A DNA stretch of 64,000 nt, taken from the NCBI GenBank assembly GCA_039621445.1, contig CP154954.1, forward strand, positions 40,789,572 through 40,853,571, given 5' to 3'. This document shows positions 28,533 through 64,000 of this stretch, in pieces. The notes under the pieces were generated by a model. That model had not been told where the DNA came from and did not search any database. It saw only the letters and a program-made list of their open reading frames with translations. A program made the translations under genes and the position numbers. Source of the stretch: Euglena gracilis (taxonomy: Eukaryota). How positions within the stretch are numbered: the stretch's first letter is position 1; each line of letters opens with the position of its first letter.

Positions 28533-28839
28533 TAGGGTTAGGGTTAGGGTGAGGTCACCCATTTTTGTATTTTTGGATTTGGAGCAATTTTTGAATATTT
28601 TTTTTCATTTTGGCAATTTTTGCTTTTTTTCACTCAGATTTTTTGCGCATTTCTGCACACTTTCCAAACTGCGCATTTTTTTGTGCTTTTTTTGCTCATT
28701 TGTGCTCATTCGAGCCCGGCTGGCGCATTTTCCTCCCTGATCAAGGCTGTATGGAATCTAAGCCCAGCAGCCCAAGGACCATTTCTGTCCCATTGTTGCC
28801 TTCCTGCAGCCCTTAGCATGGTTTTGCCACTCCGCTCAC

Positions 28840-31800
28840 ATGGGTGAGATGGAGGAGCCGGGCGAGATGGGCGACCTCAGCATCGTGGACATCGATGTGG
28901 AAGAGTGTGCCCTTTCTGCTGCATGCCTGGCCCCTCTCCCGCGCCGTTCTGCCCCCGGGGTCGGCAACAACAACCCCCAGGGTTGGGACCCCTCCCTTTT
29001 ACCTTTAACAGCCGAGTCCAGTTGGCCAGTGCTTCGGTGCCTTTTCCAGTGAACAGCTCCTAGGTGGGGCTGCCGACCCCCCAAGGATCCACTGAAATAA
29101 AGCTAGGTCAAGTTCAGTCGAGCTGGGCTGTCCGAAATTTTTCGGTCAAGCCATTGAAAATTTTTGAATCCTTCAGGAAAAAAACTGGTGGCAAAATGGT
29201 ATTTTGAATGTTTTTTTTGTTTCTCCTAAAAAAACTGACTGAATTTTTTTTTACCGCCTGGGACCTATGACTTCTGGGTGGGCCTCTATTGGGGATCTTT
29301 TTTTCTGTTGCAAAGCCCAAAACATTTGGACCCGGAATGGACCCTCAGGGGGTCCCCTCAAAGTTCCCTACTTGGGTGTTTTAAAAAAACCTCTCTTCTG
29401 AGGTGGTTGAGGTTGGGCTGTCGCGGTGGTTGGCCGGCCCCGATCGGCCGCCATCAGCTCTGCCGGAACAACGTCGCCCCCCCCCCCCCCCTCAGGGGCC
29501 CAGCCGACCACGGCCTCGAGGCCCCCCCAGCCCCCGAGGGGCTGGAGCTCAGCGCCCGGTCCAGCAGCAGCCGCGGCGCCGCGGAGCCGGCGGGCCCCCT
29601 CCTCCAGGGCTTCATCAGCCGCGCCGACATCGACATGGAGGCCCCCGGCACGTACCACCCGCTGGACGACGAGTGGTGTGTGGCCGCCCCCTGTCTGGCG
29701 CGGTCCGAAGCGCGGCTGTGCATCCTCTCCGCGGGTTGTGTGGAGCCTTGCCTCCTTGCGGCTCCGATGGCGACCTTGGGCGCCGTCCCTACCTCGTAGT
29801 GTGATTTTGATGTGCGTTTCATGTCGTTGCCAGTCGTTATGTGAACGGTGCAGGCAGAGGTACCAGAAGGGGGATCAACCGGCATTTTGGCACTTCGCTT
29901 TTCGGAGTTTTGCTGGTCGCTGGCGGAGGGGAAGGGACTTATTTGTTGGGGCCAGAATTTTGGCTGAATCAACGCTGCAACCATGTAAATGGGACCCGGC
30001 CCTATCTTCCCTTCCTTGTCGGTTTTAAACAGTTCTTTTTTTGAAGCTCGAATTTTTTCCATAAATCAATATTTTTTGAAACATATGGTCGGCAGACAAG
30101 GGGGGTCTGAAATCTTCATTTCGTAATTTGACGTTGCATATTTTGTCAGGGTTTGATGCAAAACCGTCAGTTTTTGGGAGGGGGTTTTATCGTTCTCCAG
30201 AATTTGAAAACGAGTCGCGAGAAGACAGCCTCGCCGCGCCGCGCCGCGCTGTGCAGGTACACGTACGAAGCCACCAACGGGATGAAGTTCATCCTTCCGA
30301 AGCGATACCGAGTGAAGGAGGAACTGGGTACGGGTGTGACCCCCTGTCTCGGACCTTGCGGCGTGGCGGCCAGGGGGCCTGGGTTGCCCCCACCGCAGCG
30401 TTGCGTCGAGCGTGTGTCTGTGGTGTTTCCTCCCAGTCCTGCTTGCTCAGCCCCCCCCCCGAGGTTTTCAAATGTTGGGTGGCCTGCTTGGAGGGCGCTA
30501 CTCAGAAAATATGACCCACAACCCCGGGGGGGGGGGGAGCCAGCAGCCCCTTTCCAGCCCCGGACCATAGATTTGTTGAACACCTGGGTGGCCCCTTCCC
30601 CCTTAGTTGCACCGAGGCTTGTTGTCTATTTATGGCCGGCGCTAACTTCGCTTCTGGCCCAGTTTGTGTAGTGAGTTGGCCAGGGACCCCTTACACCAGT
30701 GCTCTTGTGTTGCTCCCCCTGGCCCCTCCCCCCCTGGGGGCGGGTGGTTTGGGGACCTGGGACCCCCCTGGGGGGTGCACCAGGTCAGGTTTTTGCCCAG
30801 CCAAAGGCCGGGCCGGAAAAATTTTCCGGCATTTCCCAAAGCGAAAACCCTTTGGGTATCTGGAATAAACAAAACTCATTGATGGGGGGGGTCTGGAGCA
30901 TAGATTAACTTAGTTACCCCCCAGGACACCCACCCACTTTTTCCAAAAACCCACTCACGTGCAACCCCCCCCCCTGGGGGCAACCACCCACCCACCCACC
31001 CAAATTTTCCAGCCATTGAGCTGGACCCCCCCCGGGGGGGGAGCGGTGGTTAAGCAACGCCCTGCCTGCTGGTGTGTGGAATTCCAGATGTTTGCACACG
31101 AACACCCCCACACACACGACATGCGCATCACTTCTTAACGCACCATGCCATGCCGCCTTGCGCTCCCTGCGCGTTGTCCGCCATACAGGGTCGTACGCCG
31201 CGGTGCTCTCCGCGTACGACCACAGCTCGGGGGAGACCATCGCCATCAAGAAGTGCGACCAGCTCTTCCAGCACCCGGAGGACGGGAAGCGCGTGCTGCG
31301 GGAGATCAAGCTGCTGCAGTTCTTCGACCACCCCGGCGAGGCCGCGGTCCACTGTCACCTCGTCCGGACAGCGCCGCTGCCGCTGCCAGCCGTTCATCCC
31401 GGGCCCCACTGTGACAGGCGTGGACCGCCCGGTCAGTGCTGCCAGGGCCGGCAAACTAACCCCAAGCAACTTTGCACTGCCCCCCCCCCCCAAAGCTTTG
31501 TGAACCCAAATGCCTTTGCAGGGGGTAGCGGGCTAACAAGTTCTCCTTTATCCCCCCCCAAGGCATCGGTCCACAGCACCGGGTACCATGGGGGTGGTTC
31601 CCTGGTCAACAGTGCCCAGCAGGCATTCCCATGTCCAAGGCGCTAGGAGCCAGGGAGGCCTAGCTTCTGCCCACTTTCAAAAAGTCCGCCTACGGACCCC
31701 CCGTGGAGTGGGGCCCTCCAAAACCCCACCACAAGGCAATGGAAAAGCCAGAGAAGGGGTGGAAAGCGCAGGTGCAGGAGTTGGGGGGAGGGCAGGTTGT

Positions 31801-50819: not shown

Positions 50820-53800
50820 CAGGCACTCCCAGACAACGCACCCAGCAGGGTACTTGGCCGAAAGTGCCTGGGCCTTTCAGCACCGAAGGCGCCAGACACC
50901 TCGGGTTCCGCACTTTGCCCTTGTGAGGCCATGCCTTGCTCGCCGGCGGTTTGATGCGATTGACACCTCGGGCTCCGCACTTTGCCATCGTGAGGCCATG
51001 CCTTGCTCGCCGGCGGTCTGTCGTGATTGCTCTGGTGCGCTGGGTTAGGAGTCCCTGCTTGGTGCCTTTTGTCGCCGGGGTTGACTGATTCTTGACTTGC
51101 CCTTCGACACCCAGAAGAAAGGAAGAGAGGTCACGAACGAAGAAGAGCCAAGAGCAGAAGTCGTACTCCCTCGAGGCAGACCGAGAAGGGAGGAAGGGAC
51201 ACCGAGGGCGAAGCACAAAGACATTGAATTCAATATCCAGAAGGACACGACCCAGACGAATATAAATTGTAAAGTCAATTATCAAAATTCAATTTGGACT
51301 TCAATGAGCAATGCAATGGAAAAGAAATTTGAATTCTATAGCCACAGACGTCCTGGGTCTGGCCGCAGCGGCTGGAGAACTCGGAAATGCGGTGGACAAC
51401 GTGAAAAAACTGTGGCCGCTCGTATCCCCCAGACCCCCACCCCAGAAATTTCCCAGCACAAATCCCCCCAATGACGGCCACGGTCCTTGGACCACTGTGT
51501 CCAGAAGGCCCAGAAAAAAGCAGTCAGCCCCAGCCCTTGGTGGGCAAAGGAGGGGCCATGGAGGCCCAAAATGCCTCCCAAAGAGACATTCAAGGCCCAC
51601 ACATCAGGGGCATCTACCCCAAAGGCGCACAGTCGCCTGTACACAACTTGGCCAGAAGATGGGGAGATGGAATCAACGCCAAGGAGGTGTTCGCCACGGC
51701 GGGGGGGGGTAGGTAGGGGGGTTAGGGGGTAGGGGGGGTTGGGGGGGTCGCTGAGCTCTTATCCCTTTATGGGTAAGAGCGAAGCTTACCCCTGGCGAAA
51801 CCCCCCCTCGACCCCCCCCTCCCCCCCCGCCCCCCCGGGGCCCCCCGGGTCGGGGCCACCTCGGGAACCGGCGGATTATCACCATGACGGTTCCCGGAAC
51901 TTTTTTTTCAGTCGCGAGCGACTGGATTCTAGTTTCCGAATCACCTGGGTTTGACCCCCAACTCCCCGCCAGGCCCGAGTTATTCACGCGCGAAGGGGTC
52001 CAAACTGGGTAGGATTCGCCCGCCCGCCCCTGGATAAGCCCCCCCCCCCTTTGGACTCTGCCATTTCGGCCAAAAAAAATGTCAATTTTCAAAATATCTC
52101 CAAAATGAAGCCAAATAAAAGGAAATGTCCGAAGACCAAATTTTATGACCTTGGAACGCCCCATCTGCTGGTATTTTGATTTCCCCGCAACTCCCCGCCT
52201 AGCCCGAGATACGGCCGTTTTCGTCCCGGATGGCCGTTTTGTGCACTTTTACCACTGTCCGACTTAGCCTTTTTTCGGCCAAAATTCAGCCAAAAATCAA
52301 TATTTTCAAAATATCTCCAAAATGATGCAAAATCAAAGGAAATGTCCGGAAACCTGAATTGAAGCCCTTGGAACGCTCTATCTACTGGGATTTTGGTTTC
52401 CTCGCAGCTCACCGCCCAGCCCGAGATACGGCCGTTTTTCGGGCCATGGGGGCCAATTTTACAAGCAAATCCCCTCAGTAAGGGGCAGAAAAGGTCTGTC
52501 AACCCCCCCCCCCAATTCATCTTACAGAACAGCCCTTGTCAAGGGCAAAACGGGTGGCCACAGCAGCCCCCCCGGATTTTCAGTGGGGTTGGAGGCCAAG
52601 AAGAATTCAAGGCCTGGAATAACAACAGATGTATTATGGAAAAATATTTATACCTGGAGACCTTGGAGGCCAGCAGGGTGCACCCACAGTGGCCACCAAG
52701 AAGCTAAGGAATATCATGCTGGAGAAAACCCCCGAGGGACCACAGAGGTCCTCTGCCAAAAAAAAATTGAAAAAGGGACCCACAGTGGCCATTTCAATGA
52801 CCCAGCCCCAGGAGGAAAATGGACCCATAGTGGCCCTTTCAAGGACCCAGTTCCCAGAGGAAAAGGGACCCACAGTGGCCCTTTTGGAGGGAGGGGCAAG
52901 AACCCCTCCAACAATTATTTCTCAATTCCCGATCATTCAATCAGGGGGGGACCCACAGAGGCCCTCCTATGGTATGTCAACCAACCATATCAACATGGAG
53001 GAGACCTGATAGGCAAAACAGGGGCATTGAGCCCTATGGTATGTCTTCCAACAACAAGATCCTCCAGGGAGGTGAGCAGAGAGTGTGTGTGTGTGTGCAT
53101 GCACATCCCCCCAGAGAAAAATTCTTTTTCCAAGGGCCCAAGCCCTAGGAGACCTAGGGGTGCAATGTCCAACACCCCCAGCCCCCCCCCCAAAAAATCA
53201 TCTCATCCAGGAAATAAATTCCATGGAGGAAAAATGGGGAGACACCCCCCTTCATCAAATGTTTCAAAAAATTAAAAAGGTTGACAAAAAACGCCCCCCC
53301 CCCCAACAACATGTCAACTCATCAGGGATGGCGTTCAATCCCCCCGGGGAAACCCACCAAAATTGTCCACCCACCCGAAAACCAGAGCAAATTTGAACCT
53401 AAACCAAGCAGAAAGAATACTACAGGATTACGAAAAATCTGGATCCGTAAAGAGGGTAAGGGATTCAACCACCCAGCCCCTGATCCCCTGGTTTTTGATT
53501 TCAAAACCAGAGGGGCAGACAAAATGGAGATTAATAAGCGATTGCAGGGAAATAAATCAACGGATCCAAGTGAAACCTTTCAAGCTGGATCACATCCAGC
53601 ACTTTTTTCCTGTGTTGGAAAAAGGCCACTGGGAAGCAAAAATAGACCTAAAGGATGCTCACGTCCACATCCCAGTGAGCCAGGCCCTAAGGCCCTTTCT
53701 AAGACATCAGGTGGGGGGGCAGGCCTGGGAATTCCAGGCAGGCTGTTTTGGCCTAAATGTGACGCCCCAAATTATCATGTCAGTAATGAAAACATTCGAA

Positions 53801-54900
53801 AAGTTGTGGAGGAAAAGGTGCATCCAGGTATTTATTTACCTGAACGACATTTTACTGGTAGCCCCAACACAAAACATCTTACACAGTGGTCAGGGATTTA
53901 ATAATATCAGGTTTCAAAATCAATGTCAAAAAGTCCACCCTGCAGCCCACCCAAATCGTAAATCACCTTGGGTTTCAACTAAACTTCCAAGAGCGCAAAT
54001 TACAAGTGCCCCCCCCAGAAAATAAAAACAGTAAAAAAGGAGCTGGGAAAAATGATGAAAAAGGATCACATGTCAAAAAGGCAGTTGGATGCCATTTTGG
54101 GGAAAATCGGATGCAATCTAATGGCCCTGCCCTTTCTAAGGGCCTTTACGGATGCCCTGGCAATTTTTTTGGTGGATAATTACACAGCCCCCTGGGCTCA
54201 AAACACCCCATTTCCCAAAGAATAAAGGACCAATTAAGACAAATAAAAATTCTCCTGGACTCCTGGGGGGGCAGCCCCTTCCCCCAAATTGCAACCAGTG
54301 AGTTGCACTCAGACTGAAGTACCCATGTCTGGGGGGGGGGGGGCTGGACATTCGAACAGGCAAAATCGCGCAAGAATTTTGGAGTGAAAACTCCATTTTG
54401 CACATAAATGTCAAGGAAGTGCAGCAATAAGCACAGTTCAAAGCCTCAGCCAGCCAGTAGAAACTGTGTCCCTGTCAGTGGACAATAAAGTAATTTACGA
54501 TTTCATAACAAAAGGGAGGGGGCAGAAAAGACCCCTTCGATTATATGCTAAGAACCTTTTTCAAATGGTGCATGTAACACAACATAAACCTGCAAGTAAA
54601 GTGGATCCCTTCAAAGGAATGCATAGCACACCCCATAAGCAGGTGGGAAATGGACAGGGGGATTATTCACTGGACCTCCAACTTTTTAAAGGGCCGAGGC
54701 AGCAGTTCAAACGTTACGTAACCCTGAAAACAGCCCTTTTTGCCTCACCAGGCAACAAAAAACTGCCACAATTTGTGGCCAGGTGGCCCCACTGGGAAGC
54801 CACAGCAGTGGACGCATTGCAATGTCCACTGGACAACATGGCGGGACTTAATGTAAACCCCCCCTGGTCAGTAATTCTCCAGATTAAAAAGGTGGCCACT
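50820..54900 (+). mobile_element. Decayed, 3'-truncated DIRS-like retrotransposon (ORF1 remnants, RT, RNase H, Dam-like methyltransferase)
   Basis: RT at 53363-54025 (WRLISDCREIN, KIDLKDAHVHIPV, FGL, YLND). Frameshifted RNase H remnants (HINVKE, SVDN). DIRS-type MT follows (LFASPGNKKLPQF...VDAL...NPPW at ~54855). The RT-RH-MT order is typical of DIRS1. No tyrosine recombinase seen. 5' boundary approximate. Confidence 0.85.
51700..52515. mobile_element. Insertion interrupting DIRS ORF1; related in reverse orientation to ~40510-40795
   Basis: G-run/C-run inverted ends and an internal ~220-bp duplication. GGCCAAAAAAAATGTCAATTTTCAAAATATCTCCAAA closely matches the reverse complement of ~40757-40791. 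Confidence 0.55.
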
Positions 54901-56264
54901 CCCCCTACTGGGATTCAGCGACATGGTGGCCCCAGTTAATAAAAATGAAAGTACCAGGAACTTGTTTACCGGTCCCACCCCCTGTGCGCCGCCGGTCGCC
55001 CCCGCGACCGGCGAGTCCCGTTCGGCCGAGGGCCCGGGGGGGTCCCAGCCGTCGTGGATGACCACCGACAGCCGGGGGGTGGGTGTTTCCGGGGCGGGGC
55101 CTGTGATTTTTCTGGGGGTTGGTGGGCTCAGGCCAACTCGCAATTTTTCACCCAGGTGTTTTCCCCTACCACAGCCGGTGCGTAATATCGTTTTTTGGCG
55201 GTTTCCGAAAATTTGGTAAAAAACGAAAAGTCTTCCATTTTGAATGAAAACTCACTTTTCTCTCTTACACTCTCTCACGCTCTCTTGCACACCTTGAGGA
55301 CAAAAACCAACCCACAGACCAATCCACTGAATCCTGAAACTCTGGAAGTGAGAAACTGAAAGTAACTTAAGTGTGAACAATTGAAAACGAACTGTGAAAT
55401 GTAAATGTGTGAAAATGTGCAAACCTGCGGCAAGGAGGAGGGGTATAGGTAAGGTGGTGGTGGCGGTGTTGTAGGCTCCTTCAATCCAATCCTCCAATAA
55501 TTCCAACCAACAATGTAATGACCAACAATGTAACTGCAAACTCCAATTCAAAGTTCCAACAATGTGATTGATCAAATCCAATTCAATGTATTTCTTCTTT
55601 GCCAAAAAGTGGGGTAAACCCCTCAAGTTCTGTAAAAAAAAAACAGAATTTAAAAGCGCAAAATAATTTGACCCGCTTCCAATTTGTTTCGCGGGTTTTT
55701 TTAACTGATTGGCTGTTACCCGCGACTTTGTAATTTGTGCTTTCTGACAATTTTTGGCTGTCGGCGAAAGCTGGCGGCCGACACCCCCTCCCTTGCGACC
55801 TTAGTCGGACACCAAAAACTAGCCCCCCCCCCCCCCAGTTCCTGAACAACGGGGGGAAATTCTCCATTCGGCACTCTTTCACTCAAAGCCTATGTCCCAC
55901 ACAGGCTCCCTTGAACCAACCAAACATACCAAACAGGAAACAAAATTCAGGGACTATGGCTTTCAAGTGCCCTCAAACCTTTGGTAAAGATTCGGTTCAC
56001 CAACCAATGGATATTTGGCTGCCCCTTCCCCTCTTCTGACGGGTGGAATGAGGGTCTTCACTAAAATCTGCCCCCCGCCCACCTTTTTCCAACGGGCCGG
56101 GGGATTTTTGGTCAAAAATTCGGTTGGCAACCCCCGATTTTTGTCAAAAAAATCCAAGCCCCCCCCCCCTCCTCGGGCCGGGGGCATTTTTGGTCAAAAA
56201 ATCAAGCGACCCCCCCCTCTCCTCGGGCCGGGGGATTTTTGTCAAACCGAAGGGGGGCTCATAA

Positions 56265-56640: not shown

Positions 56641-56789
56641 CTTTGCCTTCCCTTTGGGCTCACCGTAGAGTCTTAGGCAGGGCCTTATGGCTCCACTTAG
56701 AGCCTATGGCCCACCGTCAATTTTTAGTTCGGACATTATGTCCATCTTCACTTTTTTCTCACGGCAATACAAACTCCCCACTGAATCTG

Positions 56790-58085
56790 TGAATGAAATT
56801 TCCAGCTGGTTCTCAGGTTTTCTCCCCATCCTCATATCCGACCCACTTTGTTAAAAACTCCCACTTTCCATCCTTTCCTTTCCGGTGCCTTAGAATTTTC
56901 TCCACCTCCCACTCATCAGGTAATGCCTCTTCTTCTTTTCGGTTTGTTTATAATAAAAAAGAGGCACCCCCTTACCTTCGACTTGGGGTTCCCGATACTC
57001 CTTCAAAAAACTCCTATGAGCCTTTGTCTCCACCCCAGGTTTAATCTCAATTAAATAACTCCGTTTCCCTTCTCCACCCTTCACGACCCCAGGTCCTACC
57101 CACCTAGAGTCAAGCTTCTCACCCGAACCTTCGGGTCTCCTATACCAACCAAACCGTCGTCCCCACCTTTAGGTGTTCCATTTCTTTCCTCCCTTTATTT
57201 ACCCTTGCCACCTCCTCCTCATGCTTTTTGTTGAGTATCCTAGCCACCCTCCCATCAATGTCTTGCATCCTTCGGATAAACTCCACCGAACCCTCACATT
57301 CTTTGGGTGGTTGTGTAGGGTGCCCCTGCCAATGGTCTTTCCCTTCCATGCAAAATTTCATATGGGCTGAACCCGCTTTCCCCCTTCACATCGTGAATTC
57401 GGTCCAAAACCCAATTGATTTTTTCCTCCGATTACAGTTTTCTAAACACCTCCATTACCTGTTGTCCGGCTCTTTCAACCCTCCCGTTTGCTTGGTGGTG
57501 GTATGCTTGGGAATACGCTTGCCTAATCCCCAAAAGTGCACACATACTTTTCCACCAAGTGCTTGTGAAATGCCTCCTTTGGTCACTCGAAATGACCGAA
57601 GGAACCCCAAAAGGCCTCCACTGATTTTTCACCATTTCCTTGGCCAACTTGGCACCGGTTAATCCCTTTTCCTTGCATGCAACCCCCACAATCCAACCCG
57701 AATGCCTATCGACACAAACGGCAAGGGTGTCATATTTCCCCCCATCGTGTAAAACCCTTGGTATTCGAAACAAATCGATGGCCACACTTGTCATTAGTGC
57801 AGGGGGTATGGGTGTGGACTTGATTGGTCCTTTCAAACTCTCCCCCCTCACACTCGTTTGGCACGTGGAACAATTTTTGCTGCAATTTTGATTGATTTGC
57901 TTTGCAGCCTTTTCATCAGCCCAAACAAAACGGATTGCCATGTGTTTCCAAAATCTTTCAGGGCCAACGTGCCCCAAAAACTCGTGATTTTCTTGAATCA
58001 CCAAGCGTTGAAAACTTTCAGGCACACACAACTTTTCCTCAAAAAACAGTTGGCCATTTAGCACTTTGAAGCCCTTTGGCCACAT
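56790..58085 (-). pseudogene. Integrase with HHCC finger, DDE core, GPY/F-like motif and C-terminal chromodomain
   Basis: HEFLGH...CSTCQ, IDLF, ISSDQ, HHQANGRVER; KLDSRWVGP (~57117-57091); EWEVEKILRHRKGKDGKWEFLTKWVGYEDGEKT*EPAGNF (~56914-56795) with TGA replacing the conserved Trp. Confidence 0.92.
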
Positions 58086-58559
58086 TGAACCGCCTTTGGT
58101 AGCTACCTATTTTTCTTTCCATGTGGGACATTGGGAATATGCTTCCCCCAATCACGCTCCCAAACGGGCTTGATATCCTTAGGGGTCGTACTTGGCAGGG
58201 CGTCCCCCAATTCCATACGGGTGTCCCCCCTCGAACTTTCTGCCGTCTCCGGGACAGGGGTCGTCTCCCCCCCCCACTTTCTCATCCCAAAAATGAACTC
58301 GTTTCTTTCCTTTCCTGGGCCCTTGGTGAGTGGGTGTCCACAGGGGTGTCTTTTCCTCCTGGGTCTACCCCACCCTCGGTTCCCCTCCTTGCGCACTCTC
58401 CTTTTTCCTCCTCAGGTGTTACGTTTTTGCCGCGACGGGTTGTCACGCCCCGTATCCAGGTATTACGAAAATTTTTCCTCTTCTTTTTCTTCCCGGATAA
58501 AATTTTCCATTTCATCCTTGTCTTCGGCCGACCCGTGCTTACTTATGTCCCTTTGGTCC

Positions 58560-58886
58560 TGTGAAGCTGGGTATGCCCACCAACTAAGGATATCCGCTAT
58601 GGTATTTTCTTTTCCCAGGATATATCCCACTGTCAAATCATACTTGGAGAAAATTTGGTGCCATCTCGCCCTCTTCCCAACCGGACCTCTAGGGGTATCT
58701 AGGACTTCCCTTGTCCAAGACTCCAAACTTTGGTGGTCGGTTGAAACCAAAACGGGTTGCAATCCAATCAAACTCTCCCATTTTTGTAGTGCCAAATATG
58801 GCATACGTCTCCAACTCCCTGGGGGTCCATTTTCTTTGCCCCTCAGTCAATTTTCGAGACATAAAAGCCACTGGAACAGTCATCAC
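58560..58886 (-). pseudogene. RNase H (C-terminal half) of the gypsy element
   Basis: PVAFMSRKL..QRKW..RELE..AI, TDHQSL, RARW, GKENTIADILS. Confidence 0.9.
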
Positions 58887-59269
58887 ATTCTGTGGGTCTT
58901 CTCCTCTCCTTCATTTGCTCTAACTTTACTGTGCATCAATTGCACAAAGAGCAACACCTTTTTTCAGCTCCTTAGCAAAATTTTTTCAGCTCTTTTAACT
59001 TTTCTTTTCAATTCACACTCCTTTTTTCCAATCCTGGGCTCTTCTTTCTTGCAATTTGCTGCTACTGGCTACATTACCGATGTTTAATAAATTTATCCCA
59101 CTTCCTTAAAATTTTTTTCCATCCTCCCACATTTCAGTGCCTCCTAAAGTTTCATAAAATTTGCCCCAAAAATTCACCAAATTGTCTTCGTTCCCCTGAG
59201 CCCCCCGTGTACCACGTTCACGTCTTTGTCATCCCCTGCATCCAAATCTTTTGGTGTCACCACTAGATC

Positions 59270-59830
59270 CTTTGCTGTAAGTATGTCATCGATGTACCCT
59301 GTGGCGATATCCCTTACCGGTGTCAAACGGTCATCGATCATTTGCTGAAATTGTTTGGGGGCATTTGTCAAACCCATTACATTCACCCTCCACTGAAAAA
59401 TGCCTTTGGGGGTAAAACAACACGTTATGGTCGACTTTCTGGGTGTAAGGGTTGTTGGTCAAAAGCTTGCTTCAAATCGATGATCGAAAACATTTAGTTT
59501 GCACCATCTTTGACCAAAATGTCTTCAATTTTGGGTAGGGGGTAGTTGCATCGCCTTGTTTGGCTGTTTGGGCCCCTGAGGTCCACCACCCACCTCCAAG
59601 GAAAATTGTTGCATTTTTTTTGGAACTGGAAAAGTCTGTGACAGCCATTCAGAATTTTTGGCTGTGGCTGGCTCAATGAATTTTCTGTCAATCCAGTCTT
59701 GTGTGATATTTTCAAGTGCCTCTTTCCTCTCACCGTGCATGAAAAAAGGCTTCTGTCTGGTTGGCTTTGCCCCCTCCTTCAACGGTATGTATGCATAACC
59801 ATATTGCCCTCTTTCGGGGGGGTCTGGAAA
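59270..59830 (-). pseudogene. Reverse transcriptase of the gypsy element (frameshifted)
   Basis: IPLKEGAKP...FPVPKK, WRWVVDLRGPN...YPLPKIEDIL, MGLTNAPKQFQ...YIDDIL. Confidence 0.92.
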
Positions 59831-60350
59831 TGGCGATGACCGAAATACTGTTCCCCTGTAATCCTGCAAAACTTGTTCTCTCAACTTGACCACCCGTTCA
59901 TCCTCCTTTTTGTCCTCCCCCTCCCTTGCAATTATCATTCGGTTGATAACTTGCACTGGGTGGTCACTTCCCTCCAAATTGTGGCAACCTCCCTCAGGTC
60001 CTCATCGCTCCAAAATTGCAATTCCTGGTCCAACCCTTCCAAAGGCAAACAAAGACCAAGTTTTTGCAACCCAAACGAAGACCCGTCCACCGCTGTCACA
60101 TTGTCCACTGAAAAATTTGTGTCATCCCTGAATTTTTGCGGCCCCTCCGTCTTTCAAAACCCCGCAAAAAATTAGGTTGGGGCTGTCTTTCACCAACGCC
60201 TTGTGGTGTGGAAAAATTCCAGTTTTGCCTCTGCCAACCAAGGATAAGAAAGAATTGCATCAACTTTGATACTTGCCTCATAAAATTCAACTTCATATTC
60301 CACACACCCAGGTTCCCGTTCCTCATTCCAATTTTGTTGAAGGATCACTT

Positions 60351-60608
60351 TCACCTTAGCACATCCGCCTCCCCCCCCGCCAAAGTTTGCCCATTGGCAG
60401 TTTCAAACCTTAACGGGTCCTTAGCAGGATACATTAGGTGGTCCCCTTTCAACCCTTGTCGAATGAGGTTTGCCTCAGCCCCCGTGTCAGTCAAAATTCT
60501 GGCTGTTTTTTCCTCCCCATTTGCCAACTTAATCTGGGTTTTTAACAGAAGTTGTCTGTCCTCCCCGAGTTTCTTCGATCCTCCCCGAGTTTTCGTACCC
60601 CTCAACAT
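60351..60608 (-). pseudogene. Retroviral-type aspartic protease of the gypsy element
   Basis: ARILTDTGAEANLI...FETANGQ motif. Confidence 0.9.
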
Positions 60609-60659
60609 TCTTTTTTTTCAGCTGAACGATTTTTTTCTTCCCTGGGGCTGCCCCACTCT

Positions 60660-61070
60660 GAGAGGGTTGCCTTCTATCAATAAACAAGGCACACACACCC
60701 CAACGGGTGCCCCTCAAAATCCTCCCATCAGCCTCCCAAAACTTTGTCCCCTTGGGAAAATAAATCATTTTGAAAGCCATAGCAACCAGTTTTTCACCCA
60801 CCTCCGATCCAAGTCAGGGCAAATGCAAATTGCCCGAAAGCTGGCGTTTTGCAACTTTTCAGCCACATCAGGCCACAAAGTTTCAGGGGGGGGTTCATCC
60901 ACAACGTTTCCTCCGCACCCCATTCCTTTTCATGGCATCATCATCCTCCCCATAAAACTTTTCACACCTGGCATTTTGGCTGGTTGCAAAACAATCCCGT
61001 TCAGCCCTAACCTGAAATTCCTTTTCAGTATCCTCCATACAGACTTTCCTAACAGCATAATCCTCCCTAC
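60660..61070 (-). pseudogene. Dam-like N6-adenine methyltransferase domain inside the gypsy element (frameshifted)
   Basis: RDCFATSQNARCEKFY...DDAM, then after a frameshift EWGAEETLWMNPP (NPP ~60895-60887), then AICICPD. This parallels the DIRS MT in the same window (LFASPGNKKLPQF...DAL...NPPW). The residue after NPP is degraded. Confidence 0.75.
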
Positions 61071-61089
61071 GATATCCCCTTTTTTGTTT

Positions 61090-61690
61090 TAACACGGTTA
61101 ACAAATACTCCACCAGTTGTTTAGGCATCCTCCATATTTTTCTGGGTACCAACTGTCATTCCGTACCCTCCCAACTTTTCACGGTGAATCCTCCCCCCAG
61201 AATCAAATTCGGGCAGGTCTGGCCATCACAAAGTTTGTTTTTTAGCTTGCTCAGATTTTCGCTCCCCCAGATTCGAATGGGTTTTTAATATGACCAATCT
61301 GAAAATTGACAACAATAAACATCGACAAAAGTCAGATTTTGAACGCAGGGTCTTTTCCGCAAAAGCCCATGACAGGGATTTTCAATCCACCGCAACTTTG
61401 GTTTGAAATATTCGAAAATTTCCAAAGTTCTTTTTGACCAGCCGATCTGCCCCCTCCAAATTTCTGACTCCCAACGTTTTGGCCAAGCTATATTCTGTAC
61501 AGGGCACCCCCGCAGCAATGATCTGAAAATATTTGGGGGGGGTACCTCCAGTATCTCCACTCTAAAATATTTACATAGTGGGTTGGGTTAAATCTGCGGT
61601 TGATGCCCACTGACACAACCTTAAACCCCTGCTCTCTCAGGCAATACCCAACCGATCCTTTACCGCAAAAAAGGTCTGAAGCTCTTTTCT
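61090..61690 (-). pseudogene. C5-cytosine DNA methyltransferase domain inside the gypsy element (frameshifted)
   Basis: Motif I DLFCGKGS (61676-61653); catalytic motif IV IIAAGVPCTEYS (PC at 61504-61499); motif VI WIENP (ENP at 61383-61375); motif VIII-like Y*KPIRIW; terminal RMPKQLVEYLL. Two frameshifts lie in homopolymer runs (~61538, ~61433) and there is one TAA at 61287-61285. Confidence 0.88.
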
Positions 61691-61842
61691 TTACGGAAGG
61701 CTGTGCACGACCTCTCATGAGGTCTGGTTTTTTACGGATTTGCACGTCACGCACGCACGCACCCGTCACACTGGACACACCTTCTGCAGAGATCTCCTGT
61801 GGTTGCAGATTTTTCATCGTGGTTTCACTCGCACGCACATAT

Positions 61843-62897
61843 GGCCTAAAGTGGAGCCCCCACACTTAAGTGTGGGGTACTGTGGGGGGTATGTGTGGGG
61901 GGGGTGCGGGGGGGTGTGTGGGGGGGTGTGGGGGGGGTGGTGTGTGGGGTGGGGTGGGGGGGTGTGTGGGGGTGGTGCGGGTTTGTGTGGGGGGTGTGTG
62001 GGGGGTGTGTGGGGGGGGGTGTGGGGGGGGGGGGTAGTGTGGGGGGGGGTGTGGGGGGGGTGTTTTGTGGGGGGGTGTTGTGGAGGGTGTGGGGGGGGGG
62101 GGTTTGTGGGGGGGGTGTTGTGGGTTGTGTGGGAGGGGTGTGGGGGGGGGGGGGTGAGGGGGTGCCAAATCTGAGGAAAGTGGATTTTCTTTCTCTTGCC
62201 TTGCACACACAAGGGATGATGTTATTTTGGTTCTGGGGGGGGGTCCGGGGGGGCGCCACCCCCCCCCGGGCCGCGGCCGAAGTCCGCGGCGCGACGAGGC
62301 CGAAGGCCGAGTAAGTAAAAAAAAATGACACCCGAACAGTTGGTCACATTCAACTTGGGTTTAAAAAAGAATCAGGCTGTTGCTCACCCATGGTACTGTA
62401 AACCAACAAAGTGGATTTTCTTTCCCTTGCCTTGCCCACACAAGGGGATGATGTTATTTGGTTCTGGGGGGGGGTCCGGGGTGGGGCGCCCCCCCCCCCC
62501 CGGGCCGCGGCCGAAGGCCGCGGCGCGACGAGGCCGAAGGCCGAGTAAGTCAAAAAAATGACACCCGAACAGTTGCGCACAGTCAACATGAGTGTGGGGG
62601 GGAGTGTGGGGGGGTGTGGGGGGGTGTATGGGGTGTGTGGGGGGGTGTGGGTGTGTTTGGGGGTGTGTGGGGGTGTGGGGGTGTGTGTGGGGGGGTGGGT
62701 GGGGGGGTGTGGGGGGGGGTGGGGGTGTGTGTGGGGGTGTGTGTGGGTGGGGGGTGGGGGGGTGTGTGGGGGGGGTGTGTGGGGGGGGTGTGGGGGGGTG
62801 TGTGGGGTGTGTGTGGGGGGGTGTGTGGGGGGGTGTGTGGGGTTCTGTGGGGTACTGTGGGGTACTGTGGGGTACTGTGGGGGCTCCGCTTTATGCC
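61843..62897. mobile_element. MITE family B, copy 2 (opposite orientation, nested in the gypsy element between gag and the C5-MTase)
   Basis: Inverted ends GGCCTAAAGTGGAGCCCCCACA / TGTGGGGGCTCCGCTTTATGCC. G-rich subterminal arrays. Internal units are reverse-complement homologues of those in copy 1. Confidence 0.85.
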
Positions 62898-63006
62898 ATG
62901 TCTCCTCGCACGAGATTGATCATGCCACCTGGCTTTTGCGTTTGTCTTTGTGTGGGGCTGGGTATACAAGCCCGTGGCGGCTCCCGCCCCCAACGGTCCA
63001 CCCCGG

Positions 63007-64000
63007 CTATCCTAGCATCGGTTTCCTTTCCCCCTTCCTTTGCCTATGCCTTTTCCACCATCCTGGCCCTTTCCTCCTAGACCAGTCATTTCCATTGTTT
63101 CCTTTCCCGCAAGAATTGTTTCCTTTGCCCTTTCCTTTGCCTTTGCCTTTGCCACCACCAGATTGTGAATCGAAATTCTGTTTATTTGACTGCCACCAGT
63201 CACTTCCCTGTGAATTGGCATTGGCATTGGAATTCCACCCAGAATCGTTTCTCCATCGCCCCCGATTGCCAATTTCAGATTGTTGGGGGGGTGGCAACGA
63301 CTGTGATCGAACCACTGGCACTGGATTTTGTGCTGGGGGGTTCACGTTCGTATTGGTCATTGGAGCTGCCACCTGTGAAGAATCTGATTTTTCAACGGAC
63401 GGTTTTGCCATCGTTTCGCCCCCCTTTGCTGACCGTGTTTGGGAGGGTGTCCGGGACCCCTTGGCCCGATCTACCTTTGCAAACCTGGTCCTCTGGTTTC
63501 CAACCCCATTTGGCTCTTTGGAACTGTGTATCATGTCTTGATTGTCCCTGGATGACAATTTTCGCTCAACAAAACGGCAAATTTCCTCAGCTCCCATTTT
63601 TGGCTGTTCCTCCACGATTTTGATCCTTTTGTCCGTGCCTGTGATTGGTTTCCCACTGAGCTCTTTCAGTTTGTCGCAAATCGTAGTGTTGGGCAAAAAG
63701 ACTTCGAACTCCATCGGTGAAACTTTCAAAACCTTGCAGGGCTTTTCCCCAGTGACACGTTCCACGGCACAAATAATGTTTTCCTCGGTTGCAGGCACTC
63801 CAGGGTACATTTTGACTTTCGGTCCACACGTTGATTTCCTTTCCTCCTCATCGGCGACCCAATGCAAAATGAAATTTGGCAGTTCTCCCTTGACCAGCCT
63901 TTCTTGCTCATCGTCGGTGGCACTTTTCACCTGTCTCCAGGCCATTCTGAAATTTATCGCAAAGTCTGGCCATTGCCGTACGGTAATTTTCCCTTTGGTT
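63007..64000 (-). CDS. gag-like ORF of the gypsy element (5'-partial)
   Basis: Open frame of more than 312 aa upstream of pol on the same strand, with a low-complexity N/G/K-rich C-terminus (GKGKGKGK). Assigned by position, not by a conserved motif. Confidence 0.65.
   Translation of the reverse strand, partial: TKGKITVRQWPDFAINFRMAWRQVKSATDDEQERLVKGELPNFILHWVADEEERKSTCGPKVKMYPGVPATEENIICAVERVTGEKPCKVLKVSPMEFEVFLPNTTICDKLKELSGKPITGTDKRIKIVEEQPKMGAEEICRFVERKLSSRDNQDMIHSSKEPNGVGNQRTRFAKVDRAKGSRTPSQTRSAKGGETMAKPSVEKSDSSQVAAPMTNTNVNPPAQNPVPVVRSQSLPPPQQSEIGNRGRWRNDSGWNSNANANSQGSDWWQSNKQNFDSQSGGGKGKGKGKGKGNNSCGKGNNGNDWSRRKGPGWWKRHRQRKGERKPMLG

What the first reader, a model, noticed from the sequence alone, without database searches (positions are those of the whole stretch)
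60660..61690. Ty3/gypsy retrotransposon carrying tandem C5-cytosine and Dam-like N6-adenine DNA methyltransferases between gag and protease
Seen: on the pol strand, directly upstream of the DTGA protease, frame-corrected translation gives a C5-MTase motif series (DLFCGKGS, AGVPCTEYS, WIENP, Y*KPIRIW). It runs in frame (ORF 60895-61152) into a second domain, RDCFATSQNARCEKFY..DAM..W...LWMNPP. Established: FxGxG, PC and ENx are C5-MTase motifs I, IV and VI. D-x-FA...N...NPP(W/F) marks the phage Dam-like MTase usually found in DIRS1 elements. Retrotransposon-borne C5-MTases are known from dinoflagellates and a charophyte alga. Inference: a dual 5mC plus 6mA writer module in an LTR element of a probable euglenid is an architecture I do not recognise as described. 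It could methylate the element's cDNA for protection, mimicry of host DNA or self-regulation. This copy is decayed.
Basis: partly seen in the sequence, partly recalled or inferred. Interest (0 to 1): 0.93.

Follow-up and report, generated by a model that had tools for sequence, protein, structure and literature searches.

The report
Dead Euglena retrotransposon with two methyltransferases
This is a broken copy of a Euglena-type gypsy retrotransposon whose polyprotein carries both a cytosine and an adenine DNA methyltransferase domain, an unusual design that a 2026 preprint has already described as an "EpiLTR".

Summary
On the minus strand, directly upstream of the DTGA protease, lie a compact C5-cytosine methyltransferase domain (61682-61096) and a Dam-like adenine methyltransferase domain (61065-60676). 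PR, RT, RNase H, integrase and a chromodomain follow.

Intact relatives carry both domains in one ORF and pass Pfam's cut-offs: P0153 scores 28.5 bits on PF00145 and 45.1 bits on PF05869. An AlphaFold model of the C5 domain matches DNMT3 and DNMT1 structures.

The window copy is dead. It has 7 frameshifts and one stop in the module, about 24 frameshifts and 5 stops overall, a lost RT/RNase H stretch, and a nested 1069-bp TIR insertion between the gag-like ORF and the DNMT. It is about 90% identical in protein to a Euglena gracilis transcript ORF. The family is highly repeated in DNA runs and weakly transcribed.

The architecture is not new. bioRxiv 10.64898/2026.05.21.726589 (May 2026) describes E. 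gracilis "EpiLTRs" combining DAM, DNMT and a chromodomain.

Possibly new:
- The closest relatives of the DNMT module outside retroelements are standalone 195-236 aa DNMT genes on virophage- and PLV-like viral contigs and in Tetraselmis virus 1.
- Environmental relatives show DNMT, DAM and PR in all six orders.

Function, probably self-methylation of the element's cDNA, is inferred and not shown.

The parts
63010..63999 (-). gag-like ORF. It is 330 aa, runs off the window end, and has a basic C-terminus rich in Gly, Lys and Asn.
   Evidence: ORF listed. No Pfam hit, no homologue in the near-length search, no Atlas hit, and no similarity to the N-terminal extensions of 29 relatives. It is assigned to the element by position. 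In addition, family contigs run from 61835 straight into sequence matching 62913-62942.
61836..62904 (.). Nested insertion of a 1069-bp element with terminal inverted repeats and no long ORF. Inside are C-rich ACAC arrays and two internal repeats of about 185 bp.
   Evidence: Inverted arms at 61841-61864 and 62876-62899, 24 nt and 92% complementary. The arm pattern occurs only at these two places; 0 expected by chance. The internal repeats 62177-62360 and 62408-62593 are 91% identical. The empty site is seen in other family copies (loose ends at 61835).
61828..61835 (-). Target-site duplication CGTGCGAG, proximal copy. The distal copy lies at 62905-62912.
   Evidence: Read directly.
61096..61682 (-). 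Compact C5-cytosine DNA methyltransferase domain of about 197 model positions. It is broken by frameshifts at about 61532, 61429, 61190-61199 and 61135 and by a TAA stop at 61287-61285.
   Evidence: Motifs I (FCGKGS), IV (VPC), VI (ENP) and the KPIR remnant are present. Positions conserved in relatives are substituted here: SVD to SVG, VDYC to VYCC, KPTR to KPIR.
60676..61065 (-). Dam-like N6-adenine methyltransferase domain (PF05869 type). It is broken by frameshifts at about 60923-60932, 60882 and 60787-60790. The catalytic NPPW reads NPPL.
   Evidence: PF05869, 18.8 bits. (family HMM positions 1-130 covered). (215 of 243 residues identical to the E. gracilis transcript ORF P0002 across DAM and PR).
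60211..60554 (-). Aspartic protease, with DTGA at 60488-60477.
   Evidence: PF13650/PF13975, weak. (family PR HMM, E 8e-24 and 3e-16).
59212..59623 (-). Reverse transcriptase, N-terminal part, with YIDD at about 59296. The stretch 58881-59211 does not align to P0002 residues 610-775, which cover the RT C-terminus and RNase H N-terminus.
   Evidence: RVT_1, E 2.7e-5 on 59174-59458..
58463..58910 (-). RNase H remnant.
   Evidence: PF17917, E 1.3e-5 and 1.3e-3..
57435..58106 (-). Integrase: H2C2 zinc-binding domain plus rve core.
   Evidence: PF00665, E 1.4e-10; PF17921, E 1.2e-6.
56797..56911 (-). Chromodomain remnant. The internal region ends at about 56709.
   Evidence: alignment to P0002 residues 1471-1509. 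Pfam calls that stretch of P0002 Chromo (E 4.8e-13).

Best explanation
Window positions 56709 to at least 63999 (minus strand) hold a dead copy of a high-copy Euglena-type chromovirus (Ty3/gypsy) family. Its Gag-Pol polyprotein carries two DNA methyltransferase domains between the gag-like region and the protease. The first is a compact C5 DNMT of about 200 aa. The second is a Dam-like (PF05869) adenine MTase of about 130 aa. This is the 'EpiLTR' architecture of Fernandez-Moreno et al. 2026.

Shown here:
- the domain identities;
- their order (gag-like, DNMT, DAM, PR, RT, RH, IN, chromodomain);
- that both domains are integral parts of one ORF in intact relatives;
- that catalytic motifs are conserved across relatives that differ by 50% or more;
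- that this copy is inactivated.

Inferred, at about 40% likelihood: in active copies the two domains are translated as part of Gag-Pol and so are packaged in the virus-like particle. There they methylate the element's own cDNA, or the RNA:DNA hybrid, during or just after reverse transcription. The new insertion would then arrive already carrying CpG 5mC, the default state of the Euglena genome, plus 6mA, the host's mark of permissive chromatin. The chromodomain would steer integration.
For: Pfam on intact relatives:
- P0153 carries PF00145 (28.5 bits, cut-off 22) and PF05869 (45.1 bits, cut-off 28.1) in one 538-aa ORF.
- P0003 scores 27.1 and 45.5 bits on the same two profiles.
- P0011 scores 35.2 bits on PF00145.
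- P0001 reads DNMT C-half, DAM, PR and RT N-terminus in one ORF.
- P0002, named EG_transcript_113 by EukProt, reads DAM, PR, RT, RH, IN and Chromo.
- P0013 is a single 2513-aa ORF with DNMT, PR, RT, RH, IN and Chromo.

Fold: the AF2 model of the DNMT domain has pLDDT 88.8. Every PDB chain listed is a C5 DNA methyltransferase: DNMT3A/B/C, DNMT1, MET1 and DIM-2, with E about 1e-8.

Conservation:
- In 40 full DNMT domains, P-C (motif IV), E.P (motif VI), the motif II Asp and KPTR are at least 90% conserved.
- NPP[WFY] is present in 32 of 34 full DAM domains.

The window copy against P0002:
- 535 of 603 residues identical over residues 1-609, and 671 of 720 over residues 776-1540;
- 19 frameshifts and 4 stops.

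The DNMT adds 5 frameshifts and 1 stop.

Family membership of the module:
- 3013 and 2569 contigs from two DNA runs lie on 60300-61900.
- Summed depth over DNMT and DAM is similar to that over PR.
- The stop at 61287 is private to this copy (A>G in essentially all other depth).
- The indels at 61430, 60882-60886 and 60370 are absent from most or part of the other copies.
- RNA reads exist: 32 and 9 laid, mostly 85-95% alike.

Literature (sections 7-12 read): the preprint reports Euglena LTRs with DAM, DNMT and a chromodomain. It also reports near-default CpG 5mC in E. gracilis and a higher share of 6mA-methylated DAM-LTR insertions.
Against: - The window's own pieces fail Pfam cut-offs: no PF00145 hit, and PF05869 at 18.8 bits against a cut-off of 28.1.
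- PF00145 matches only profile positions 2-112 of 324 in every relative.
- Only 4 of the 10 relatives scanned reach its cut-off. Three score below it and three do not hit at E<=0.01.
- No single ORF was seen that holds every domain from gag-like to chromodomain for the DAM-bearing form. That architecture is pieced together from overlapping ORFs of different contigs.
- LTRs were not seen; the 5' end lies outside the window.
- The gag-like ORF has no homologues.
- No methylation activity is shown anywhere. The preprint's E. coli assay of eukaryotic DAMs was negative, and it reports low or undetectable LTR expression in E. gracilis.
- Most genomic copies share this copy's frame disruption at 61199 and 61136, so most of the family may be dead.
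Confidence: 0.8

Rival explanations
1. The two domains are retained as non-catalytic modules, for example for nucleic-acid or SAM binding, particle assembly or chromatin tethering. They no longer write methyl marks.
For: The preprint found no increase in 6mA when eukaryotic DAMs were expressed in dam-deficient E. coli. It also notes that eukaryotic DAMs lack the CD-1 and TR-1 regions of the prokaryotic enzyme. The DNMT is very short, about 197 positions, and PF00145 aligns only to motifs I-VI.
Against: Catalytic residues are at least 90% conserved among relatives that differ by 50% or more: the PC Cys, ENP, the motif II Asp and KPTR in the DNMT, and NPP[WFY] in 32 of 34 DAM domains. Standalone viral relatives of the same compact DNMT exist as complete genes.
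Confidence: 0.15
2. The enzymes act mainly in trans on host chromatin rather than on the element's cDNA. They would add to genome-wide CpG methylation or mark neighbouring DNA, as was suggested for Symbiodinium DNMT retrotransposons.
For: De Mendoza 2018 raises effects on the host epigenome (abstract and passages). The family is extremely abundant in DNA runs. The whole window is CpG-depleted, with observed/expected 0.61 and TpG/CpA at 1.2.
Against: Few RNA reads were laid: 32 and 9 from about 5% of each run. The preprint reports low LTR expression in E. gracilis. The element's CpG depletion (0.54) does not differ from its surroundings. Sarre et al. mention a Euglena DNMT1 and DNMT5 orthologues in euglenozoans, so host DNMTs exist (passages).
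Confidence: 0.12
3. The methyltransferase segment is a chimera: a separate element nested in a gypsy copy, or an assembly artefact.
For: The preprint itself warns of nested insertions, chimeric TEs and assembly artefacts in E. gracilis. A real nested insertion does lie immediately upstream, at 61836-62904. Domain order varies among relatives.
Against: Uninterrupted ORFs cross DNMT-DAM (P0153, P0003), DNMT-DAM-PR-RT (P0001) and gag-like-DNMT-PR-...-Chromo (P0013). They come from independent JGI and ENA contigs. Thousands of contigs from two runs cover DNMT, DAM and PR at similar depth, and joints that skip part of the module occur only in single low-depth contigs (depth 37-78). No termini or duplication flank the module.
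Confidence: 0.03
4. The C5 domain methylates RNA, for example the element's genomic RNA or tRNA primer as DNMT2 does, rather than DNA.
For: It is compact and single-domain, like the RNA-directed DNMT2 and DNMT6 described in Sarre et al. (passage). Its position in Gag-Pol puts it next to packaged RNA.
Against: All listed structural matches are DNA C5 methyltransferases (DNMT3, DNMT1, MET1, DIM-2). Its closest relatives are genes of dsDNA viruses.
Confidence: 0.05

Closest known systems
Euglena gracilis 'EpiLTR' (DAM-LTR subset with DNMT and chromodomain). Fernandez-Moreno et al., bioRxiv 10.64898/2026.05.21.726589. Abstract, sections 7-12 and passages read.
   Same: Same host lineage: the window is about 90% identical in protein to an E. 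gracilis transcript ORF. Same class (Ty3-like LTR element with a chromodomain) and the same pair of domains (PF05869-type DAM plus C5 DNMT).
   Different: Nothing established. The text I could read does not give the Euglena domain order, and figures and supplements were not available. This window copy is dead. The preprint places the DNMT as sister to DNMT4; here its nearest relatives are viral compact DNMTs, a comparison the preprint's text does not mention.
KnitGypsy-Dnmt3, SymbioDIRS-Dnmt3 and SymbioLINE-Dnmt. De Mendoza et al. 2018, PMC5890265. Abstract and passages read.
   Same: Retrotransposons with a C5 DNMT inside the coding region. Self-methylation of cDNA was proposed.
   Different: Those DNMTs are DNMT3-type (or another type in the LINEs), of presumed host origin, and full-sized. 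None also has a Dam domain. Here the DNMT is a 200-aa type related to viral genes and sits between the gag-like region and PR.
DIRS1-type elements with a Dam-like MT domain (cited in PMC5890265 and the preprint).
   Same: The same PF05869-type adenine MTase domain with D.FA...NPPW motifs. The preprint infers that LTR elements captured it from DIRS elements.
   Different: DIRS elements use a tyrosine recombinase and lack PR and IN. This element has PR, an rve integrase and a chromodomain. The DIRS-like remnant in the same window (53285-54936) is not a close relative of this DAM.
Standalone compact cytosine methylases of polinton-like viruses, virophages and Tetraselmis virus 1. The PLV 'cytosine methylase' is mentioned in PMC9356565 (passages read).
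   Same: Same length class (195-236 aa) and the same signature (DYC..[YF]..WGY.K.TR.W, a C...C...H cluster, ENP, PC). They are 33-43% identical over the whole domain to the reference copy P0011. TetV-1: Foldseek E 2.7e-18, TM 0.68/0.79, 32% identity.
   Different: The viral ones are free-standing genes on gene-dense, low-GC contigs. These contigs carry a virophage major capsid protein (L017, L020), Capsid_N (L009) or a primase-helicase (L007). They form the opposite side of one well-supported branch from all 50 retroelement copies.

Membership tests
Ty3/gypsy chromovirus (LTR retrotransposon) | pol order PR-RT-RNase H-IN with an rve integrase | tested here: met
   Window pieces hit RVT_1, RT_RNaseH, Integrase_H2C2 and rve in that order. 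P0002 shows the same order. Alignment.
Ty3/gypsy chromovirus (LTR retrotransposon) | chromodomain C-terminal to the integrase | tested here: met
   PF00385 in P0002 (E 4.8e-13) and in P0013. The window aligns to it at 56911-56797, with one stop nearby.
Ty3/gypsy chromovirus (LTR retrotransposon) | long terminal repeats and a target-site duplication | not testable with these tools
   The 5' end of the element lies beyond position 64000 and no genome is held.
Ty3/gypsy chromovirus (LTR retrotransposon) | recognisable gag (capsid or zinc knuckle) | tested here: inconclusive
   The ORF 63010-63999 has no Pfam, sequence or Atlas match. Only position and composition support it.
C5 cytosine DNA methyltransferase (PF00145) | Pfam gathering score of 22 bits | tested here: met
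   Met by relatives: P0011 35.2, P0008 29.1, P0153 28.5, P0003 27.1, P0013 25.3, L004 23.8 and L002 22.9 bits. Not met by the broken window pieces or by P0044, L003, P0055, P0015 and L005. P0019, P0007 and P0009 gave no hit at E<=0.01.
C5 cytosine DNA methyltransferase (PF00145) | motifs I (FxGxG), IV (PC) and VI (ENV) with the usual spacing | tested here: met
   The window has FCGKGS, VPC and ENP, with 55 and 40 codons between them. P-C and E.P are at least 90% conserved in 40 relatives.
C5 cytosine DNA methyltransferase (PF00145) | C5-MTase fold | tested here: met
   AF2 model with pLDDT 88.8. Every PDB chain listed is a C5 DNMT: DNMT3, DNMT1, MET1 and DIM-2, E about 1e-8, TM about 0.5.
C5 cytosine DNA methyltransferase (PF00145) | canonical C-terminal half (motif VIII QxRxR, target-recognition domain, motifs IX and X) | tested here: inconclusive
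   The Pfam alignment stops at profile position 112 of 324. The family has KPTR.W, a short Cys/His-containing insert and R.P..L..YL instead.
C5 cytosine DNA methyltransferase (PF00145) | methyl transfer to cytosine C5 | not testable with these tools
   Needs an enzyme assay.
Dam-like N6-adenine MTase (PF05869) | Pfam gathering score of 28.1 bits | tested here: met
   Met by relatives: P0001 46.1, P0003 45.5, P0153 45.1 and P0002 37.8 bits. The window piece scores 18.8 bits.
Dam-like N6-adenine MTase (PF05869) | catalytic NPP[WFY] motif | tested here: met
   Present in 32 of 34 full-length family DAM domains. In this window copy it reads NPPL followed by a frameshift, so this copy does not meet it.
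Dam-like N6-adenine MTase (PF05869) | adenine methylation activity | not testable with these tools
   The preprint's heterologous assay of eukaryotic DAMs in E. coli was negative.
EpiLTR (Fernandez-Moreno et al. 2026) | one LTR retrotransposon encoding DAM, DNMT and a chromodomain | tested here: met
   All three are found in one collinear minus-strand element in the window.
DIRS | tyrosine recombinase instead of PR and an rve integrase | tested here: not met
   PR and an rve integrase are present. No tyrosine recombinase was reported by Pfam in P0002 or P0013.
Viral compact DNMT family (PLV, virophage, TetV-1) | free-standing gene of about 200-240 aa in a dsDNA virus genome | tested here: not met
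   Here the domain is embedded in a retroelement polyprotein. It is homologous, but the 50 retroelement copies form their own side of a branch with SH-aLRT 100.

The most novel reading that the evidence does not exclude
The C5 module of the Euglena-type EpiLTRs is not a host-derived DNMT. It belongs to a compact DNMT family of about 200 aa otherwise found as free-standing genes of virophages, polinton-like viruses and a giant algal virus. One chromovirus lineage acquired it once. The DIRS-type DAM domain was added later, because DNMT-only full-length elements exist. The DNMT, DAM and PR modules were then repeatedly reshuffled, giving all six orders among environmental relatives. This would link dsDNA-virus epigenetic genes to retrotransposon epigenetic toolkits.
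Probability: 0.45. Interest if true: 0.55.

Novelty: already known. Interest (0 to 1): 0.4.

Why it matters
A mobile element that carries writers for both 5mC and 6mA, plus a chromatin reader, could set its own epigenetic state on arrival. That bears on how transposons evade or exploit host silencing. In Euglena it is especially relevant, because CpG methylation is the default state there and 6mA marks a subset of promoters, according to the preprint.

The architecture is already in a 2026 preprint, so this window adds only a dead example. What could still matter is the link seen here between the element's compact DNMT and virophage, PLV and giant-virus DNMT genes, together with the evidence for module shuffling. 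Both bear on where transposon 'epigenetic toolkits' come from, and both can be tested with a proper phylogeny.

Tried and rejected
- Own-genome search: no genome is held.
- Other copies in the window: blastn of 56800-64000 against the window found none, only the internal repeat of the nested insertion. tblastn of all 152 proteins hit only 56-62 kb.
- Rfam on the window: no family reached threshold.
- Earlier scan notes: nothing found.
- Homologues of the DNMT N-terminal window piece among longer proteins: none. This is weak evidence, because the piece is broken.
- Homologues of the gag-like ORF: none in the near-length search; longer and shorter proteins were not searched. No usable Atlas hit. 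No similarity to the upstream extensions of 29 relatives.
- PDB sequence search with an intact relative: only marginal DNMT1 hits, E 0.13-0.32. The fold search was needed.
- DAM of this element against the DIRS-like DAM in the same window: no significant BLASTP similarity beyond NPPW. I therefore rejected the idea that the neighbour was the donor.
- CpG depletion as a mark of the element: the element (0.54) does not differ from the rest of the window (0.61-0.64).
- DNMT tree with architecture labels (quick method): 27 of 58 inner branches were open and 8 label changes were needed among 32 labelled rows. It is too poorly resolved to order the rearrangements.
- Prokaryote genome scan: no match. 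The scan used only the single pattern GY[QKM]KPTR[IF]W, so it shows only that this signature is absent.
- Sequencing runs: no run held more than 0.24 of the sampled words of this exact stretch.
Full report
**1. What is in the sequence**

- Motif I: DLFCGKGS, 61676-61653.
- Motif IV: AGVPCTEYS, with the catalytic Cys codon at 61501-61499.
- Motif VI: WIENP, 61389-61375.
- Y*KPIRIW, with its stop at 61287-61285.
- Within ORF 60895-61155: WRMPKQLVEYLL...RDCFATSQNARCEKFYGEDDDAMKR.
- After a frame change: WGAEETLWMNPP.
- Protease: DTGA, 60488-60477.

Downstream, Pfam finds RVT_1, RT_RNaseH, Integrase_H2C2 and rve on window pieces in the gypsy order.

Pfam on the broken methyltransferase pieces is weak. 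None of the three DNMT pieces hit PF00145. PF05869 scored 18.8 bits, below its cut-off of 28.1.

**2. Relatives settle the domain identities**

A search with the bridging ORF found two proteins.
- P0002 is named EG_transcript_113 by EukProt and is 1540 aa. It reads Dam (PF05869, 37.8 bits), PR, RVT_1, RNase H, H2C2/rve and Chromo.
- P0001 comes from a JGI metagenome and is 588 aa. It reads the DNMT C-half, Dam (46.1 bits), PR and the RT N-terminus in one ORF.

Metagenome loci and an exhaustive phmmer search with P0001 gave many more. That search returned 2237 proteins at E<=1e-3, 848 at E<=1e-10 and 123 at E<=1e-30.

Intact relatives pass Pfam's curated cut-offs.
- PF00145 (cut-off 22 bits): P0011 35.2, P0008 29.1, P0153 28.5, P0003 27.1, P0013 25.3, L004 23.8 and L002 22.9.
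- P0153 and P0003 also carry PF05869 at about 45 bits in the same ORF.

Not all relatives pass PF00145. P0044 (21.8), L003 (20.4), P0055 (19.8), P0015 (16.3) and L005 (12.8) are below the cut-off. P0019, P0007 and P0009 gave no hit at E<=0.01.

In every case PF00145 aligns only to profile positions 2-112, which cover motifs I-VI. I therefore folded the domain, using P0011 with a 40-row alignment. The model has pLDDT 88.8 and pTM 0.79. Every PDB chain listed by Foldseek is a C5 DNA methyltransferase (DNMT3A/B/C, DNMT1, MET1, DIM-2), at E about 1e-8 and TM about 0.5.

HMMs built here from relatives alone hit the window's pieces strongly and cover both domains.

**3. The module is an integral part of the element**

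ORFs from independent contigs run uninterrupted across the domain boundaries.
- P0153: an N-terminal extension, then DNMT, then DAM.
- P0001: DNMT, DAM, PR, RT.
- P0002: DAM through to Chromo.
- P0013, the DAM-less form: 627 N-terminal residues, then DNMT, PR, RT, RH, IN and Chromo in one 2513-aa ORF.

I laid two DNA runs on 60300-61900 at 85% likeness or more. 3013 and 2569 short contigs lay on the stretch. Summed depth over DNMT and DAM was of the same order as over PR. Joints that skip part of the module occur only in single low-depth contigs.

**4. State of this copy**

Frameshift-aware alignment gives the following.

| Reference | Window span | Identical residues | Frameshifts | Stops |
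|---|---|---|---|---|
| P0003 (DNMT and DAM N-terminus) | 61682-60889 | 142 of 263 | 5 | 1 |
| P0002 residues 1-609 | 61038-59212 | 535 of 603 | 10 | 1 |
| P0002 residues 776-1540 | 58880-56709 | 671 of 720 | 9 | 3 |

P0002 residues 610-775 have no counterpart in window 59211-58881.

Residues that are nearly invariant in relatives are changed here:
- the motif II Asp is Gly;
- VDYC is VYCC;
- KPTR is KPIR;
- NPPW is NPPL.

The run lay-out shows which breaks are private to this copy and which are shared.
- The stop at 61287 is private: A>G in essentially all other depth.
- The indels at 61430, 60882-60886 and 60370 are absent from most or part of the other copies.
- The pair at 61199 and 61136 is shared by most DNA depth. 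Only about 2% (61199) and 0-1% (61136) carry the frame-restoring state.
- Yet 3 of 3 and 3 of 4 RNA reads of run X21 carry that restoring state. This hints that a small intact subfamily is what gets transcribed.

RNA reads are few: 32 and 9 were laid, from about 5% of each run.

**5. The gag-like ORF and a nested insertion**

The 330-aa ORF 63010-63999 has no detectable relatives.

It is separated from the DNMT by a 1069-bp insertion at 61836-62904.
- Its 24-nt inverted arms are 92% complementary, and the arm pattern occurs nowhere else in the window.
- It is flanked by an 8-bp direct duplication, CGTGCGAG.
- Other family copies run from 61835 directly into sequence matching 62913-62942 (26 of 30 bases). 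That is the empty site.

Without the insertion, the gag-like ORF ends about 230 nt upstream of motif I. So 'between gag and protease' is correct by position, but the gag identity itself is not shown.

**6. Comparison with what is known**

De Mendoza et al. 2018 (PMC5890265; abstract and passages read) described DNMT-bearing LINE and DIRS elements in Symbiodinium and a Gypsy-Dnmt3 in Klebsormidium. They noted Dam-like domains only in DIRS elements.

A full-text search then found bioRxiv 10.64898/2026.05.21.726589 of 22 May 2026. I read its abstract, sections 7-12 and passages. It reports the following.
- Dam domains occur in non-DIRS LTR elements, including a Euglena group.
- 'EpiLTRs' in Cymbomonas and E. 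gracilis combine DAM, DNMT and a chromodomain.
- The DNMT clade is sister to DNMT4.
- An E. coli assay of eukaryotic DAMs was negative.
- CpG 5mC is near-default in E. gracilis.
- DAM-LTR insertions are more often 6mA-methylated than other LTRs.

'EpiLTR' occurs in no other held paper.

I could not see the figures or supplements. I therefore cannot say whether the preprint shows this exact domain order or whether viral DNMTs were in its tree.

**7. What may go beyond the preprint**

(a) The DNMT model's best match among viral structures is a 218-aa putative cytosine DNMT of Tetraselmis virus 1, at E 2.7e-18, TM 0.68/0.79 and 32% identity. That is far closer than DNMT3 or DNMT1, at TM about 0.5 and 14-19% identity.

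(b) A scan of IMG/VR found 24 viral contigs encoding relatives at 32-47% identity over the best segment, 33-43% for those matched over the whole domain.
- Where the match is not cut by a contig end, it is a free-standing ORF whose Met-to-stop length is 195-236 aa in the ORFs I measured. These share the retroelement signature (DYC..[YF]..WGY.K.TR.W, a Cys/His cluster, ENP, PC). No DAM or PR hit was found on any of these contigs.
- Of 10 large neighbouring ORFs scanned, 4 had Pfam hits. Two were virophage major capsid proteins (L017 and L020, E 1e-80 to 1e-86), one was Capsid_N (L009) and one a primase-helicase (L007).
- PLV cytosine methylases are known (PMC9356565, passages read). My searches found no paper linking them to retrotransposon DNMTs.

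(c) In a quick ML tree, 50 retroelement copies and 16 viral copies fall on opposite sides of one branch with SH-aLRT 100. I left out P0094 as a long branch, rows covering fewer than 170 model positions, and identical viral duplicates. This fits a single transfer. Without an outgroup the direction is open.

(d) The signature pattern is absent from 185,579 prokaryote genomes. This was a one-pattern scan and is weak evidence.

(e) I classified 156 sequences with local HMMs.
- 21 hold both DNMT and DAM.
- The 9 that hold DNMT, DAM and PR show all six orders.
- 23 read DNMT then PR with no DAM between.

The relatives I looked up come from ENA and JGI metagenome contigs. One is labelled Genlisea aurea, which I take to be contamination from trapped protists (inference). 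Chimeric assemblies cannot be excluded, and the architecture tree is too poorly resolved to order the events.

**8. How it most likely works**

Shown: the two MTase domains are translated within Gag-Pol upstream of PR, and their catalytic motifs are conserved across relatives that differ by 50% or more.

Inferred, at about 40% likelihood: they ride into the particle with Gag-Pol and methylate the nascent cDNA or RNA:DNA hybrid. The new copy would then enter the genome carrying host-like CpG 5mC and permissive 6mA, with the chromodomain guiding integration.

The rivals are non-catalytic retention, action in trans on host chromatin, RNA methylation, and a chimera. The chimera is largely refuted.

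**9. Verdict**

Its interest is moderate. The residual novelty lies in the viral affinity of the DNMT module and in the module shuffling.

Noticed in passing
window 61836-62904 (duplicated 8-mers at 61828-61835 and 62905-62912): A nested 1069-bp non-coding element. It has 24-nt terminal inverted repeats, an 8-bp target-site duplication (CGTGCGAG), long C-rich ACAC arrays and two internal repeats of about 185 bp with GC-rich palindromes. It looks like a MITE. An 8-bp duplication is typical of hAT elements (recalled, not tested).
   Followed up: partly
window 53285-54936 (+): Remnant of a second, different retroelement. It has an RVT_1 hit (E 6.3e-9, YLND motif). Downstream is an ORF with FASPGN...NVNPPW that hits my family DAM HMM only weakly (E 6e-4) and hits no Pfam family at E<=0.01. 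It is probably a DIRS-like element with its own Dam domain. It is not closely related to the gypsy element's DAM.
   Followed up: partly
window 61199 and 61136: Most DNA depth in two runs shares this copy's frame disruption at these two sites. By contrast, 3 of 3 and 3 of 4 RNA reads of run X21 carry the frame-restoring state, which holds about 2% and 0-1% of DNA depth. This suggests that a small intact subfamily is the transcribed one.
   Followed up: no
P0003-P0152, classified: Among environmental relatives, DNMT, DAM and PR occur in all six linear orders. There are 9 three-domain proteins: 2 each for three of the orders and 1 each for the other three. PR followed by DAM without a DNMT occurs 13 times. 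This is either module shuffling or chimeric contigs.
   Followed up: partly
DNMT domain, P0011 numbering C125, C152, C157, H170 (window about 61320-61170): Three Cys and one His are invariant or at least 90% conserved, in the retroelement family and in the viral sequences I read. They lie in and around the short insert that replaces the usual target-recognition domain. They may form a zinc site. I could not inspect the model's coordinates.
   Followed up: no
P0008: A DAM-PR-DNMT protein is deposited as a hypothetical protein of the carnivorous plant Genlisea aurea, on a 2.5-kb contig. It is probably DNA of a trapped protist rather than of the plant (inference).
   Followed up: no
whole window: CpG is depleted throughout (observed/expected 0.61), with TpG and CpA in excess (about 1.2). 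This fits a genome heavily methylated at CpG. The window holds many CA, TA and C-rich microsatellite arrays, and no convincing host gene appeared among ORFs of 170 aa or more.
   Followed up: partly
window 28762-29049 (+): A marginal hit of the family DNMT HMM (E 0.0096, 11.7 bits). It is either chance or a very old fragment.
   Followed up: no
P0002 residues about 1450-1500: The E. gracilis transcript ORF holds a 22-residue tandem duplication at the start of its chromodomain. The window copy lacks one unit; this accounts for part of the 45 'missing' residues.
   Followed up: no
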